Under the pieces are notes generated by a model. The model saw only the letters and a list, made by a program, of their open reading frames with translations. It was not told the DNA's origin and ran no database searches. Source: a virus (lineage: Duplodnaviria > Heunggongvirae > Uroviricota > Caudoviricetes). Taken from it: a stretch of DNA of 64,000 nt. Positions 59,967-64,000 of this stretch are shown here, piece after piece. The stretch lies in the IMG/VR virus record IMGVR_UViG_3300006153_000005. One strand, given 5' to 3'. The position numbers and the translations under genes were made by a program. The number at the start of each line of letters is the position of its first letter. Position 1 is the first letter of the stretch.

Positions 59967-61163
59967 TTAGGCTGTCTGTTTAAGCAACTTCTGTTGCTCT
60001 TGCTGCCTGTACTTGTTAAACAGGGCATAATGTAGCCTCCGCAACCGAAGAAGCCGCCCATGGTCGTTGTAGTTTCGGTAATACGCCGTTTGACACTCCA
60101 TGAATTGGTCGATATCGGCAAGTGTACGCTTACCGTCCAAATATTCACGATGGAACAGTTTTAGCTTGCGTCTTGCACTCTTCATTCCGCCACGATTGCC
60201 ATTCACCTTAATTCTGCCAGTCTCTGTCAAAGTAAACCTTGCCTTACAGAAGCGGAATCCTTTAGAGCTGGAGAGAGGAACGATTTTGCATTTTCGCCGG
60301 TTGACACGAATACCATAGGACTCCATCATTGCCACGATCTCACGAGCAATCTTCTTCAGCTCCTCAATATCGGGGAGAATGATGTAATAGTCATCCATGT
60401 AATGACCAGCACAATGTATCCCCAGCTGGCATTTGATGTAGTTATCAATAGCACTGGGAAGCGCAACCATTTCCTGTTGACTTGGCTCCACACCGAGCGG
60501 CATACCACGACCAGGCGCTGTAGCTGGTGCCGTTCTGACAATGTAATCCGCAAACGCCCGAACTTCTGGGTTCAACATCACTTTACTATGCCGCTGGTAT
60601 ATTAGCTGACGGTTAGCATTTGGGAAGAACTTCTTCAAGTCCATAAGAAACACTGCACCATCACGCCCGTACCGTCGATAGTGCCATGCCAGTTGTTCTT
60701 TAAGCCGCCGAAATTGCCAATGTAATCCCTTATTCTTCTGACTGGCCGCATTGTCGATTATCATGCTGGGTTCATACAATGGAATAAGAATTTTGTTGCA
60801 CTCCACCTTTTGAACCTGTCGATCAACAATGTGCGGAGCATCAATAGGACGTACTTTCCCTCGCTCATGAAGTGTAAAATGAGAACACGGTTGTGGCTTC
60901 CACATTCCACTGACCACCATTTGACGCCTCTTAGCAGTACCAGAAAGCAGATGCAGTTCAAAGTTCTGGGTGCTTTGTTTCCAACGCACACCCTTACAGC
61001 ACTCTTTACCGAAAAAGAACATATCGTGAAAATTGTAAATTTTGTCGAGTGATCCTACCTCGTCACTCCGTTTTTGCCTATTGGCCTGTCGCCGCGCTTG
61101 GCGGCGTTGGTAACGCGCCTCTCGGCGCTCTTCACTTGTCATAATTTTATTCGCCCTCCGCAT
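59967..61163 (-). CDS. DGR reverse transcriptase
   Basis: RT motifs 'RPIDAPHIVDRQVQ', 'YMDDYYI' (YxDD); 'GMPLGVEPSQ' carries SQ in place of QG, a DGR-RT hallmark; sits next to TR. Confidence 0.85.
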   Translation of the reverse strand: MRRANKIMTSEERREARYQRRQARRQANRQKRSDEVGSLDKIYNFHDMFFFGKECCKGVRWKQSTQNFELHLLSGTAKRRQMVVSGMWKPQPCSHFTLHERGKVRPIDAPHIVDRQVQKVECNKILIPLYEPSMIIDNAASQKNKGLHWQFRRLKEQLAWHYRRYGRDGAVFLMDLKKFFPNANRQLIYQRHSKVMLNPEVRAFADYIVRTAPATAPGRGMPLGVEPSQQEMVALPSAIDNYIKCQLGIHCAGHYMDDYYIILPDIEELKKIAREIVAMMESYGIRVNRRKCKIVPLSSSKGFRFCKARFTLTETGRIKVNGNRGGMKSARRKLKLFHREYLDGKRTLADIDQFMECQTAYYRNYNDHGRLLRLRRLHYALFNKYRQQEQQKLLKQTA

Positions 61164-61363
61164 AGATGTCTTGTAGGTGCGTGTCTAATACTACGTTGAC
61201 CATACACATGAAACGAGGTAAACGCAATCCCCCGCCATGCAAGCAGCGTCCGTGCATGGTCGTCAAAGGGCAGTTTTAGGCTTTCACCAGGGAAGTATTT
61301 CTCCTTTTGCAAAGGTCGTCCTTCGCCGAAGCTACTACCATTCGACCTCGCACATTGCAAAAT

Positions 61364-61487
61364 CCGGGGCGCACACCCGCCGACCAGGAAGCATTGTTGT
61401 TGTTGATGTTGCCGTTGTTGTTCACATTACAGAAATTGTTGTTGTTGTTGTAATAGGGGGAACGCAACCACCACCACACAGCAGTGT
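61364..61487 (-). repeat. DGR template repeat TR (16 AAC/AAT codons; translation YYNNNNNFCNVNNNGNINNNNA)
   Basis: 124-nt match to VR1 and VR2 differing only at its adenines; 3' GC-rich box GGTCGGCGGGTGTGCGCCCCGG. Confidence 0.85.
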
Positions 61488-61519
61488 GACTCATTTACAG
61501 AAATACACCCATAGACCGA

Positions 61520-61984
61520 TTACTGCTTTTTAGTTTGTGCCAGTGCCTTAGTAACACCTCTGAGAAGTTCATCTTCCTTGTCGATCAGCAGCCCTAAACT
61601 TTCCGCCATACGATCAAGTTTCTCAACCGCATCCGCAGATTTCAACTGAACGCCTTTACTGTTCGTAAAGCATCCTTCTGGGTTCTGCATCATAAGAAGA
61701 TAGCAATGCGTAAGCCGCACATCCAAGGCTTTCAAAGAAGCCCTTGCTTCCAGCAGGTGTGCCTTGCGCAATGTCTTTCTCTGGTCGTCTGAGGGGTAGA
61801 TACTGTTTGCCATTTCAGCTTGATCCACCACTCCACCGGCCAGATGTGCGATATCCTCAGCAATCAATCTGGAATATCTTGCAGACAGCCTTGTAAGAAA
61901 ATTTAGCGTTTCCACATAAAGTTGGTTTGCCGTATTGACAAACTCCGCCTTGCTTGTGGTACGCTTTGCTTTAAGTACCGACAC
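61520..61984 (-). CDS. avd: accessory variability determinant (Avd-like basic helical protein), GTG start
   Basis: position between target and TR; helical basic protein; GGAG SD. Confidence 0.5.
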   Translation of the reverse strand: MSVLKAKRTTSKAEFVNTANQLYVETLNFLTRLSARYSRLIAEDIAHLAGGVVDQAEMANSIYPSDDQRKTLRKAHLLEARASLKALDVRLTHCYLLMMQNPEGCFTNSKGVQLKSADAVEKLDRMAESLGLLIDKEDELLRGVTKALAQTKKQ

Positions 61985-62177
61985 TGTTTTTCTCCTCTTC
62001 TACTGCTTTTTTAGTATCTATCACCCCGCGCTCCTGCTCAACTTGTTCCAGGTGCTTGATTAAGACATACTCGATGTAATTTGTCATGGATCGGTGCTCA
62101 TTCGCCGCAAGCGTACCAATCTTATCAAACACGTCATCAGTCAGACGCAGGGTAAACACTCGTTTGGTTGTCGCCAT
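61971..62177 (-). CDS. ribbon-helix-helix (Arc/CopG-like) DNA-binding protein
   Basis: 'FTLRLTDDVFDKIGTLAANEHRSMTNYIEYVL'. Confidence 0.5.
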   Translation of the reverse strand: MATTKRVFTLRLTDDVFDKIGTLAANEHRSMTNYIEYVLIKHLEQVEQERGVIDTKKAVEEEKNSVGT

Positions 62178-62370
62178 ATTATCGTACCTCCATCTAACTG
62201 GTATAAGGTATATTATAGGGCGATACTCATGCTTTGTATGCAGTCTTTAACCTGTCAAGTGATAGCATTTTTTTAGAAAACTGAAAAAAGCCAATTTTTC
62301 AAAAAAATCGCGCCGGCGCTTCGCGCCGACATTGTTTTCCGTACCGAAACTTTCTGCCTCTATCGGAGCA

Positions 62371-62392
62371 CCCGCCCACTGACGTGGGCGGG
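62371..62392 (-). other. hairpin CCCGCCCAC-gtca-GTGGGCGGG ~40 nt downstream of VR1
   Basis: perfect 9-bp GC stem, 4-nt loop. Confidence 0.45.
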
Positions 62393-62418
62393 ATATAGAC
62401 CCGATACACTGCGGCAGA

Positions 62419-64000
62419 TTAGACAGAAAAGCCGGGGCGCACACCCGCCGACCAGGAAGCACTGCGGCTGTTGATGCGGCCGTTGCCGGACACAGAACAG
62501 AAAGTGTAGGTGCTGCCGTAACAGGGGGAACGCAACCACCACCACACAGCAGTGCTGTTCGCACTGTGATTATAAGCTACCTTAGCGTTTCCACTCTTAT
62601 AGTAGTCATACTGAAGCTGGTAGTTTTGCTCTGCTGAGTTTGCGTAATTTCTGGTTCCAAAAACCTCGAACTCAGACAAAAGGAACAGGTAATCCGTTGT
62701 CGCAGTCACATAGCTTGCTGTGTTAGAGCCGCCGCCAGTATTATCGGTATACTTCGTCACTGACTTCATAACTGCTCTCAAATCGGCAGGAAGCGCCGCC
62801 ATCAGGCTGTTCGCCAAGGGGCTGGTCGGACTATTGCTGTTGCCCAACAGCGTCTTGCGCATCGCGCTGTTGTTCCATCCCCCGCTGTTGGTGCGGGAGG
62901 TATTCATGTGGAAATATCCAGCGGAAGTTTGCTCGTTGTTGTATTTGCTGTCGCAAAGTGCCACATCTTTCCCACTAATTTTTCCGATTTGGAAGTGGAT
63001 ACGATTTGTTCCCTCCTTGGCACTATTGTGATTAAAGCCCAAAATAAAAACATCAACGGAGAGGTTAGAGAAAGTATAATTCCCCGCCTTACCATTGAGC
63101 TTAATGGTTTTGGTATCACCAACATTCCAATAGCTTGCTGCAAGACCAGCATCAGACACTTGCTTGATTTGCTCCCATGTATAGGTGTTCAGCTTATTCC
63201 CTTTTGCGGGCATAAACTGAGCTGTCACTTCAACCGTTTTATTAGCAGGAGCAGTATAATTGCTTCCCGCTGCAACCTTGATGGTAATGGTTGCTGATCC
63301 GGTGGTCTGATTCACATGGTTAATAGTCACGATATCGCCGGATACGCTTACTGTAGCAACACTGGTATTGCTGGATGTAGCAGAGATCGCACCATCACCA
63401 GGACGAGTCACAGTTACAGTATCACTCAGCTTTGATGTGTTCAGGGTTACAGAACTCTTACTCAAAGTTAAGCTGCCAGCCGCCTTACCAATGCTCCACG
63501 ATACAGTCTTAGCCGTTGTAGTACCGTCAGGCCACATATAGTCATCTTTCGGAGTAAAGGTGGCGTTGTAACTCGTGGCATTGGTGCCTGTGGTCACACC
63601 GCCCAGTGTAAGCTGTGCGGTGTTATAGTTACTCCAAGACGGGGACTGCGGTGTGTTCTCTTGGAATGTCAAACTACCACTTTGACTGGGGACATTCGCA
63701 ATCGTCATCCTGTTCGCTACACCAGTCTTGCGATTAGCGGCATTAGTGTTGGCTTTGCCGTCCGTAGACATGGGGAATAGAGAGACATAGTAAGTCGTTC
63801 CATTCTTCAGCCCTGTCGCCACCAGCGGGGTACTTGAGTGGCCGTTGCGGGTTGTGCTGGTATGGGTATATGCGGCGTCAGGATCGGTGGGAGAGGCAGC
63901 ATAGCTTCCCTCTTTCACGACCACAATCGTGGACGCCCAGGTCGCACGGGTAACACCGTCAGTAACAACAGTAGCGGCAGGATCAGTCCACTTGATAGAC
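62419..64000 (-). CDS. DGR target protein 1 (tail-fibre-like), partial: 5' end beyond window
   Basis: Thr/Ser-rich repeat domains, C-terminal VR 'AVWWWLRSPCYGSTYTFCSVSGNGRINSRSASWSAGVRPGFSV'. Confidence 0.7.
   Translation of the reverse strand, partial: SIKWTDPAATVVTDGVTRATWASTIVVVKEGSYAASPTDPDAAYTHTSTTRNGHSSTPLVATGLKNGTTYYVSLFPMSTDGKANTNAANRKTGVANRMTIANVPSQSGSLTFQENTPQSPSWSNYNTAQLTLGGVTTGTNATSYNATFTPKDDYMWPDGTTTAKTVSWSIGKAAGSLTLSKSSVTLNTSKLSDTVTVTRPGDGAISATSSNTSVATVSVSGDIVTINHVNQTTGSATITIKVAAGSNYTAPANKTVEVTAQFMPAKGNKLNTYTWEQIKQVSDAGLAASYWNVGDTKTIKLNGKAGNYTFSNLSVDVFILGFNHNSAKEGTNRIHFQIGKISGKDVALCDSKYNNEQTSAGYFHMNTSRTNSGGWNNSAMRKTLLGNSNSPTSPLANSLMAALPADLRAVMKSVTKYTDNTGGGSNTASYVTATTDYLFLLSEFEVFGTRNYANSAEQNYQLQYDYYKSGNAKVAYNHSANSTAVWWWLRSPCYGSTYTFCSVSGNGRINSRSASWSAGVRPGFSV
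62432..62556 (-). repeat. DGR variable repeat VR1
   Basis: 19 nucleotide differences from TR, all at TR adenines; IMH-like GC box identical to TR up to CCGG, then diverges. Confidence 0.85.

What the first reader, a model, noticed from the sequence alone, without database searches (positions are those of the whole stretch)
59967..64000. Complete diversity-generating retroelement (RT, Avd, TR, VR) on a tail-fibre-like gene
A 124-nt template repeat (61364-61487) matches the C-terminal coding end of the upstream gene (VR1, 62432-62556). The repeats differ at 19 positions, every one at a TR adenine. That is the adenine-specific mutagenesis signature of DGRs. The TR is packed with AAC/AAT codons (16 of them).

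The adjacent RT has YMDD and the DGR-specific SQ motif ('GMPLGVEPSQ'). A basic helical Avd-like ORF and an RHH protein lie between target and TR. A 200-nt spacer with a hairpin (CCATGCA...TGCATGG, 61236-61260) separates TR from RT. The target continues beyond the window and looks like a receptor-binding/tail-fibre protein.
Basis: partly seen in the sequence, partly recalled or inferred. Interest (0 to 1): 0.8.

Follow-up and report, generated by a model that had tools for sequence, protein, structure and literature searches.

The report
Phage diversity-generating retroelement with two targets
This is a genuine and apparently active diversity-generating retroelement, a reverse-transcriptase system that rewrites the binding tip of phage proteins; it belongs to a family already described in gut Faecalibacterium/Oscillospiraceae phages, and here it also rewrites a second gene 40 kb away.

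Summary
On the minus strand, a 128-129 nt template repeat (TR, 61359-61487) matches the 3' end of the upstream gene (VR1, 62427-62555). There are 20 mismatches and all lie at TR adenines (chance about 5e-15).

The cassette runs target, RHH, Avd-like, TR, structured spacer RNA, RT.
- The RT has YMDD and LGxxxSQ, and its best solved relative is the BPP-1 DGR RT.
- The Avd-like ORF has no sequence hit, but its model matches Avd structures best.
- The spacer is Rfam RT-2 (154.7 bits).

Relatives indicate recent activity. TR is identical and flanks are 99% identical, yet ten distinct VRs differ by 154 substitutions, 150 of them at TR adenines. VR2 follows its own genome's TR in two genomes.

The same cassette layout occurs in Faecalibacterium phage Taranis, whose target is already annotated as a DGR target. 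Non-adjacent targets within a prophage are also known. This is a new member of a known kind.

The parts
62419..64000 (-). Target gene 1, partial. It runs off the window end; the full length in a close relative is 674 aa. It has Ig-like middle domains and a C-terminal DUF6273 (C-type-lectin-like) domain.
   Evidence: The ORF is. Pfam DUF6273 scores 3.3e-19 on residues 365-526. phrog_37900 scores 1.8e-194. The full-length homologue is L085 7729-9753.
62427..62555 (-). VR1, the variable repeat that encodes the last ~43 codons of target 1.
   Evidence: It has 20 mismatches to TR, all at TR adenines. Nine distinct VR1 versions occur in relatives that share the same TR.
62432..62460 (-). The invariant GC-rich 3' segment of VR1 (GCTTCCTGGTCGGCGGGTGTGCGCCCCGG), inferred to be the IMH. 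The next base is C in all VRs and A in TR.
62371..62392 (-). A GC-rich hairpin, CCCGCCCAC-GTCA-GTGGGCGGG, about 35 nt downstream of VR1 with no T-tract. It is inferred to be a target-recognition element.
   Evidence: It is conserved in relatives and absent after TR.
62311..62331 (-). An intrinsic-terminator-like hairpin followed by a T-run, after target gene 1.
61971..62177 (-). A ribbon-helix-helix (Arc/CopG-like) ORF of 68 aa between the target and Avd. The same gene sits at this position in phage Taranis.
   Evidence: It gives weak, below-cutoff Pfam RHH_7 and Arc hits and PHROG Arc-like repressor hits. Taranis gp69 occupies the syntenic position.
61520..61984 (-). The Avd-like accessory protein: 154 aa, pI 9.1, a four-helix bundle.
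61359..61487 (-). TR, the template repeat. It has 34 adenines, 11 AAC and 3 AAT codons in the target frame, and is 100% identical in close relatives.
61133..61350 (-). A structured RNA that fills the TR-to-RT spacer: Rfam RF03077, the RT-2 motif.
   Evidence: It scores 154.7 bits against a gathering score of 40, over the full model. It is present at the same place in all 12 relatives tested, including Taranis. On 36 spacers, 95.9% of cells are paired and 23 of 44 pairs show compensatory changes.
59967..61163 (-). The DGR reverse transcriptase. The conserved start is probably at 61142, which gives 391 aa. It carries YMDD and LGVEPSQ.
   Evidence: Pfam RVT_1 scores 4.5e-13 and phrog_1423 scores 4e-72. 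The best PDB hit is the BPP-1 bRT 8ub7_A at 2.7e-10, with GIPIGSLTSQ aligned to GMPLGVEPSQ. The start is inferred.
20581..21384 (+). Target gene 2, a 267-aa DUF6273 protein lying between an exonuclease gene and a primase/helicase gene.
21248..21376 (+). VR2, a second variable repeat. It is inverted relative to TR and about 40 kb away.
   Evidence: Of 19 mismatches to TR, 18 are at adenines. It co-varies with the resident TR in two genomes. It is hypervariable in a 12-member protein alignment that is otherwise invariant.
21399..21429 (+). A GC-rich hairpin downstream of VR2. The core is AGCCCAC-GGAA-GTGGGCT at 21406-21423.
   Evidence: It is conserved in L082 and L083.

Best explanation
This is a functional diversity-generating retroelement in a large temperate phage or prophage of gut Oscillospiraceae.

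The proposed mechanism is as follows.
1. The minus-strand cassette is transcribed through TR and the adjoining RT-2 structured RNA.
2. The RT, together with the basic Avd-type four-helix-bundle protein, copies TR into cDNA. It misincorporates opposite template adenines.
3. The cDNA replaces the homologous variable repeat of a target gene.
4. Targets are marked by an invariant GC-rich 3' segment. This ends in C where TR has A, and a GC-rich hairpin (GCCCAC-N4-GTGGGC) follows 30-35 nt downstream.

Two genes are rewritten. One is the adjacent ~674-aa protein with Ig-like domains and a C-terminal DUF6273 domain (VR1). The other is a non-adjacent 267-aa DUF6273 protein in the replication module, 40 kb away on the other strand (VR2). 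In both, the AAY-rich repeat encodes about 18 variable residues on a C-type-lectin-like surface. The theoretical repertoire is about 1e19 peptides, presumably to vary ligand or receptor binding.

What is shown: the sequence anatomy, the family assignments and the population-level diversification. What is inferred by analogy with BPP-1: priming from the spacer RNA, the role of the IMH and hairpin, the RT-Avd complex, and the binding function.
For: - The TR/VR1 mismatches are 20 of 20 at TR adenines, with P about 5e-15. For VR2 the figure is 18 of 19.
- Close relatives carry an identical TR and flanks that are 99.1% identical over 1 kb, but different VR1s.
- Across ten distinct VRs that share this TR, 150 of 154 substitutions are at TR adenines. 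Of the 32 internal adenines, 31 are hit at least once.
- Twelve VR2 proteins are essentially invariant over residues 1-233 and hypervariable over 234-257.
- A 138-kb contig has a VR2 gene region 95-96% identical to the window's, but a different TR. Each VR2 matches its own TR (0-1 non-adenine mismatches) and not the other's (12-13).
- The RT's best solved relative is the BPP-1 bRT, with LGxxxSQ aligned.
- RT-2 RNA lies between TR and RT here and in all 12 relatives tested, with covariation support.
- The hairpin and the C/A discriminator follow every VR and never a TR.
- The same cassette layout occurs in phage Taranis, whose target is annotated 'DGR target'. DGR activity in this phage group has been reported (PMC11792537).
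Against: - There is no direct measurement in this genome: no read pile-ups, cDNA or expression data.
- No sequence profile recognises the ORF as Avd.
- The roles of the hairpin, the GC-rich segment and RT-2 are inferred from conservation and from the BPP-1 analogy.
- Several large contigs that carry the closest DGR cassettes show no VR2-type gene. The second target therefore goes with the replication module, not with the cassette.
Confidence: 0.93

Rival explanations
1. This is a fossil DGR. The cassette once diversified the targets but is now inactive in this genome, and the TR/VR differences are historical.
For: No direct activity data exist for this window. One non-adenine difference (T>C at TR 61375) sits in the GC-rich 3' segment of VR2 and could weaken target recognition.
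Against: All ORFs are intact and the catalytic YMDD is present. TR is 100% conserved, while VR1 differs at 12-26 positions between genomes whose flanks are 99% identical. That implies turnover more recent than the background divergence. VR2 variants sit on identical protein backbones.
Confidence: 0.05
2. The RT belongs to another retroelement class (group II intron, retron, or a defence RT such as DRT/Abi), and the repeats are an unrelated duplication.
For: NCBIfam gives only sub-threshold hits: group II intron RT/maturase at 56 bits against a cutoff of 300, and Drt3a at 23 bits.
Against: The best solved relative is the BPP-1 DGR RT, not a group II RT (2.7e-10 against 1.5e-4). The DGR-type LGxxxSQ motif is present. 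No group II intron or retron RNA family is detected; only RT-2 is. Mismatches confined to adenines cannot arise from ordinary duplication.
Confidence: 0.01
3. VR2 is only a paralogous copy of the VR1 domain and is not acted on by this DGR.
For: It lies 40 kb away on the opposite strand, in a non-structural module. Some relatives that have the cassette lack it.
Against: The VR2 protein is only distantly similar to target 1 outside the repeat. Its tblastn identity to the Taranis target is 27.5%. The repeat itself matches TR at all but one non-adenine position. VR2 co-varies with the resident TR across two genomes. It is hypervariable on an invariant backbone. It carries the same C discriminator and hairpin as VR1.
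Confidence: 0.03

Closest known systems
DGR of Faecalibacterium phages FP_Taranis, Pioen and Roos (Taranisvirus; Cornuault 2018 PMC5883640; PMC11792537)
   Same: The gene order is the same: DUF6273 target, Arc-like RHH, 154-aa Avd-like ORF, TR, RT-2 RNA, RT. VR lies at the C-terminus of DUF6273. The Taranis target is already annotated 'DGR target'.
   Different: Nucleotide identity is only about 65% and target amino-acid identity about 55%. The host phage is different and much larger, with a replication module that includes a 1203-aa DNA polymerase, a primase/helicase and NrdD. It resides in Oscillospiraceae genomes. The published descriptions I read report no second variable region for Taranis, Pioen or Roos; I did not scan those genomes myself. 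This element has a second, non-adjacent target.
Bordetella phage BPP-1 DGR (mtd-avd-TR-brt), the prototype
   Same: It has the same order: target, accessory gene, TR, spacer RNA, RT. It shows adenine-specific mutagenesis. It has a GC-rich end-of-VR segment with a VR/TR discriminating base and a downstream GC-rich hairpin. The RT is the closest solved relative, and the accessory protein has the Avd fold.
   Different: The target is not Mtd: it gives no Mtd hit and carries a DUF6273-type lectin fold. The spacer RNA is Rfam RT-2, whereas RT-10 is the BPP-1 motif (PMC5737381). There is an extra RHH gene. The Avd-like protein is longer (154 against 128 aa) and is not recognisable by sequence. There are two targets.
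Two-target DUF6273 DGRs of phages Lelie and CP11 (PMC11792537) and nd4/nd12 'tentaclin' phages (PMC10743442)
   Same: One TR serves a large and a small DUF6273 target. The small target is essentially a single C-type-lectin-like domain, and VR forms a surface beta-hairpin.
   Different: Here the small target is not in the cassette. It lies 40 kb away, inverted, between replication genes.
Non-adjacent DGR targets within prophages (Wu et al. 2018, PMC5758913)
   Same: That survey reports many phage-associated DGRs with one adjacent target and one non-adjacent target within 50 kb.
   Different: Nothing differs in kind. This is a further example, with unusually clear evidence that TR and the remote VR co-vary.

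Membership tests
Diversity-generating retroelement (DGR) | A TR/VR repeat pair whose differences are confined to TR adenines | tested here: met
   VR1 has 20 of 20 mismatches at adenines, with P about 5e-15. VR2 has 18 of 19. Across ten VRs, 150 of 154 substitutions are at adenines.
Diversity-generating retroelement (DGR) | An RT of the DGR type, with YxDD and [LIV]GxxxSQ in motif 4 | tested here: met
   YMDD and LGVEPSQ are present. The best PDB relative is the BPP-1 bRT 8ub7_A at 2.7e-10, with the SQ motif aligned. No formal RT phylogeny was made.
Diversity-generating retroelement (DGR) | An accessory variability determinant (Avd): a basic four-helix-bundle protein encoded next to TR | tested here: met
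Diversity-generating retroelement (DGR) | VR at the 3' end of a target ORF that encodes a C-type-lectin-fold (or Ig) domain | tested here: met
Diversity-generating retroelement (DGR) | An IMH at the VR end that differs from IMH* in TR, plus a GC-rich inverted repeat downstream of VR | tested here: inconclusive
   The sequence features are present and conserved. CCCGG-C in all VRs contrasts with CCCGG-A in TRs, and a GCCCAC-N4-GTGGGC hairpin follows VRs only. Their function was not tested.
Diversity-generating retroelement (DGR) | Ongoing mutagenic retrohoming (activity) | tested here: met
   This is comparative evidence only: identical TR with different VRs on flanks 99% identical; a hypervariable VR2 on an invariant protein backbone; and TR/VR2 co-variation. 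Direct assays are not possible with these tools.
Rfam RF03077 (RT-2 RNA) | A match to the covariance model above the gathering score, with the consensus structure supported | tested here: met
   The score is 154.7 bits against 40, over the full-length model. On 36 homologous spacers 95.9% of cells are paired and 23 pairs carry compensatory changes; slid controls give 35-49%.
Mtd-type tail-fibre tip (BPP-1 major tropism determinant) / tail fibre | Homology to Mtd or to a recognised tail-fibre family | tested here: not met
   There is no Mtd or tail-fibre hit in Pfam, NCBIfam or PHROGs. The PHROG matches are of unknown function, plus a weak Hoc-like hit over the lectin domain. Only the genomic position next to tail-module genes supports a virion role.

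The most novel reading that the evidence does not exclude
The second target may not be a virion receptor-binding protein. It is a 267-aa protein consisting mostly of a lectin-like domain. It is encoded between the exonuclease and primase/helicase genes, and its homologues sit in non-structural regions of other large gut phages. It could be an early-expressed, non-structural binding protein, for example one that binds a variable host or competitor factor, which the phage diversifies with the same TR it uses for its adhesin. That would extend phage DGR function beyond tropism switching.
Probability: 0.15. Interest if true: 0.65.

Novelty: new member of a known kind. Interest (0 to 1): 0.3.

Why it matters
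This adds a well-resolved DGR to a known gut-phage family. It gives two modest extras.

1. It places the orphan Rfam motif RT-2 as the TR-to-RT spacer RNA of a large DGR clade. This is the position that RT-10 holds in BPP-1, so RT-2 is a candidate priming or RT-binding RNA that can be tested.

2. It offers a natural experiment. Phages share a 95%-identical replication module but carry different DGR cassettes, and the remote VR follows the resident TR. This suggests that a newly acquired cassette can take over an existing target.

Neither point changes current understanding of DGRs.

Tried and rejected
- Megablast of the cassette and of 24 kb of the replication module against GenBank phages found nothing. 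Only distant blastn and tblastn hits led to Taranis, Pioen and Roos.
- Pfam, NCBIfam and PDB sequence searches did not recognise the Avd-like ORF. A structure prediction was needed.
- MFE folding of TR plus spacer as a single RNA was no better than shuffles (z = 0.48). It would have missed the RT-2 structure, which Rfam and covariation then showed.
It has no compensatory changes and is 78.6% paired, with an invariant 3' arm and a varying 5' arm. I rejected it as the functional fold in favour of the RT-2 long-range stem.
- I looked for contigs that hold three copies of the constant 5' part of the repeat (TR + VR1 + VR2) in IMG/VR and found none. Large contigs with the closest cassettes show no VR2-type gene. 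VR2 is therefore linked to the replication module, not to the cassette. Assemblies also often break at the repeats.
- The idea that the untranslated 2-kb gap after distant VR2 homologues hides a second RT was rejected. The gap is a tRNA array with a tmRNA.
- I considered the hairpin after VR1 as a plain terminator and rejected that. It has no T-tract, and a canonical terminator lies 40 nt further on.
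Full report
**Observation**

All parts lie on the minus strand. An ungapped comparison at an offset of 1068 nt aligns TR (61359-61487) with the last ~43 codons of the upstream ORF (VR1, 62427-62555).
I find one more, at TR 61363.
- All 20 are at TR adenines. That is 20 of 33 adenines changed and 0 of 95 other bases, for a hypergeometric P of about 5e-15.
- Substitutions go to G (10), C (7) and T (3). 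They hit codon positions 1 and 2 in 19 of 20 cases.
- In the target frame TR reads TAVWWWLRSPYYNNNNNFCNVNNNGNINNNNASWSAGVRPGF, with 11 AAC and 3 AAT codons inside the repeat.

**Components**

RT (59967-61163)
- It hits Pfam RVT_1 (4.5e-13) and phrog_1423 (4e-72).
- Its best solved relative is the BPP-1 DGR RT (8ub7_A, 2.7e-10), ahead of a group II intron RT (1.5e-4).
- bRT GIPIGSLTSQ aligns to GMPLGVEPSQ, and YMDD aligns to YMDD.
- NCBIfam gives only sub-threshold group II and Drt3a hits.
- The conserved start in 36 homologous loci is TTATGACAAG preceded by GGAGG. The RT therefore probably begins at 61142.

Avd-like ORF (61520-61984, 154 aa)
- It has no Pfam, NCBIfam or PDB sequence match.
- It belongs to a family of more than 1400 metagenomic proteins.
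- An AlphaFold model built from 32 of them (pLDDT 85.8) is a four-helix bundle.
- The pI is 9.1.

RHH ORF (61971-62177)
- It is an Arc/CopG-type ribbon-helix-helix protein, on weak below-cutoff Pfam hits and better PHROG hits.
- It occupies the same position in phage Taranis.

Target 1
- It runs off the window. In a close relative it is 674 aa.
- Its C-terminal 160 residues are Pfam DUF6273 (3.3e-19).

**The spacer is a known structured RNA**

The 195-216 nt between TR and the RT start match Rfam RF03077 (RT-2) at 154.7 bits, against a gathering score of 40, over the whole model.

RT-2 is one of the RT-1 to RT-19 motifs that Weinberg et al. found next to RT genes. They showed that RT-10 occupies the TR-to-RT spacer of BPP-1, and they speculated that other RT motifs serve other DGRs (PMC5737381).

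RT-2 lies between TR and RT in all 12 related loci I scanned, including Taranis. On an alignment of 36 distinct spacers, the Rfam structure has 95.9% of cells paired and 23 of 44 pairs with compensatory changes. Registers slid by 1-3 columns give 35-49% paired.

Its 3' arm is invariant while its 5' arm varies. That 5' arm instead pairs with a segment about 50 nt downstream, as part of an RT-2 long-range stem.

**A second target**

A whole-window repeat search found a third copy of the repeat at 21248-21376 on the plus strand.
- It ends a 267-aa ORF (20581-21384). All homologues are 267 aa, and it hits DUF6273 at 1.7e-24.
- It differs from TR at 19 positions, 18 of them TR adenines.
- The gene lies between an exonuclease (19506-20276) and a primase/helicase (21444-23417), upstream of a 1203-aa DNA polymerase.

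**Target marks**

Every VR ends in the invariant GC-rich stretch GCTTCCTGGTCGGCGGGTGTGCGCCCCGG followed by C. This holds for VR1 and VR2, here and in relatives. TRs have A at that position.

Every VR is followed 30-35 nt later by a GC-rich hairpin with the core GCCCAC-N4-GTGGGC (62371-62392 and 21406-21423). No TR is.

The VR1 hairpin has no T-tract. A canonical terminator lies further on, at 62311-62331.

These features parallel the IMH/IMH* pair and the inverted repeat of BPP-1 (PMC5758913). Their function here is inferred.

**Evidence of activity**

IMG/VR and GTDB relatives were fetched with the RT.
- Loci L002, L007 and L010 have a TR identical to the window's. L007 and L010, which hold enough upstream sequence, have flanks 99.1% identical over 1 kb. 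Their VR1s are only about 84% identical to the window's.
- Ten distinct VRs share this TR (nine VR1s and the window's VR2). They carry 154 substitutions, of which 150 are at TR adenines. Of the 32 internal adenines, 31 are hit at least once. VR1s differ pairwise at 12-26 sites.
- Twelve members of the 90% cluster of the VR2 protein have only three substitutions across residues 1-233, and are hypervariable at 234-257.
- A 138-kb IMG/VR contig has a replication module 95-96% identical to the window's (L082), but a DGR cassette only about 70% identical (L019).
- Its VR2 matches its own TR with 13 mismatches, all at adenines. It differs from the window's TR at 12 non-adenine sites.
- The window's VR2 does the reverse: 1 non-adenine mismatch to its own TR and 13 to the other.

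So VR2 is a real target of the resident TR, and the phages are mosaics in which the target and the cassette can be re-paired.

**Context**

The window is part of a large phage genome.
- The plus-strand module holds Erf, an exonuclease, a primase/helicase, a DNA polymerase, NrdD and an RNA ligase.
- The minus-strand end holds a lysozyme, a tyrosine integrase, a DUF4376 tail-fibre-like ORF and the DGR.
- RTs that are 91-95% identical occur in genomes of Oscillospiraceae and Clostridiaceae isolates, including a 368-kb scaffold. This points to a prophage of gut Oscillospiraceae.
- No GenBank phage is close at the nucleotide level.
- The DGR cassette is about 65% identical to those of Faecalibacterium phages Taranis, Pioen and Roos. 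The Taranis target is annotated 'DUF6273, DGR target'.

**Comparison with what is known, and novelty**

DGRs with DUF6273 targets in Faecalibacterium prophages have been published, including two-VR elements and population evidence for activity (PMC5883640, PMC11792537). So has the lectin-like nature of DUF6273 (PMC10743442). Non-adjacent targets within 50 kb in prophage DGRs are described as common (PMC5758913).

This element is therefore a new member of a known kind.

The 'tail-fibre' label is unproven. The target has no Mtd or tail-fibre family hit, and only its position after tail-module genes supports a virion role.

Three things are mildly new:
1. RT-2 is placed as the DGR spacer RNA of this clade.
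2. A conserved RHH gene sits inside the cassette.
3. The remote VR co-varies with TR across mosaic genomes.

**Verdict**

The element is real, complete and apparently active. It is ordinary for its family, so interest is low to moderate.

Noticed in passing
window 5028-5141, 5355-5469, 5475-5592 (+); ORF 5744-7303 (+): Rfam calls three unusually long (114-118 nt) tRNA-like elements here that ARAGORN does not. They sit just upstream of a 519-aa DUF2828/DUF7788 protein (PHROG 'RNA-binding protein'; I suspect it is Ro/TROVE-like, which I did not test). A class-V aminotransferase and an RNA ligase are nearby. They might be Y-RNA-like or tRNA-like partner RNAs. The direct repeat 5059-5101 / 5509-5551 lies inside them.
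   Followed up: partly
window 57079-57157 (-): A skipping-rope RNA (Rfam RF02924, 69.4 bits) lies immediately upstream of a tyrosine recombinase/integrase ORF (55985-57010, -). The same pairing is conserved at 92% identity in the 138-kb relative, L019.
   Followed up: partly
L139 5350-5948 and 6001-6813; L140 5346-5949 and 6001-6804: In more distant large phages (144-221 kb contigs with YonK, YonG and a YonO-like RdRP-family polymerase, hence SPbeta-like), the homologous small DUF6273 gene sits directly after a ROOL RNA. A tRNA array with a tmRNA follows it. I did not check whether those copies are DGR targets.
   Followed up: partly
window 8535-8579, 27088-27132, 35510-35554, 47253-47297 and related (15921-15951, 44796-44826, 50450-50481): A repeated intergenic motif, TTTCAT..ACGAATAAAATCA(A/T)(G/T)GA.., sits immediately upstream of several plus-strand genes. 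It looks like a phage-specific promoter or regulatory box.
   Followed up: no
window 61971-62177 (-): The RHH (Arc/CopG-like) gene inside the DGR cassette is conserved from this phage to Taranis. It is not one of the accessory gene classes (Avd, HRDC, MSL, CH1) listed by Wu et al. 2018. It might regulate cassette expression.
   Followed up: partly
P0211 and P0214; L004 and L011 contigs: Two VR2-protein variants are essentially identical over residues 1-233 but end in AYYSGGLRPGFSF instead of ASWSAGVRPGFSF. This implies pairing with yet another TR. Conversely, 84-103 kb contigs with the closest DGR cassette show no VR2-type gene. The cassette and the remote target appear to reassort.
   Followed up: partly
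L078 11010-11089 (-): A twister-sister ribozyme (Rfam RF02681, 72.6 bits) lies about 4 kb downstream of the RT gene in a related phage contig.
   Followed up: no
window 58639-59211 (-) and 59501-~59896 (-): Directly downstream of the RT are a DUF4376 / 'tail fiber protein' (phrog_1348) ORF and a conserved ORF of unknown function (phrog_29409). Both are syntenic with the cassette in close relatives.
   Followed up: no
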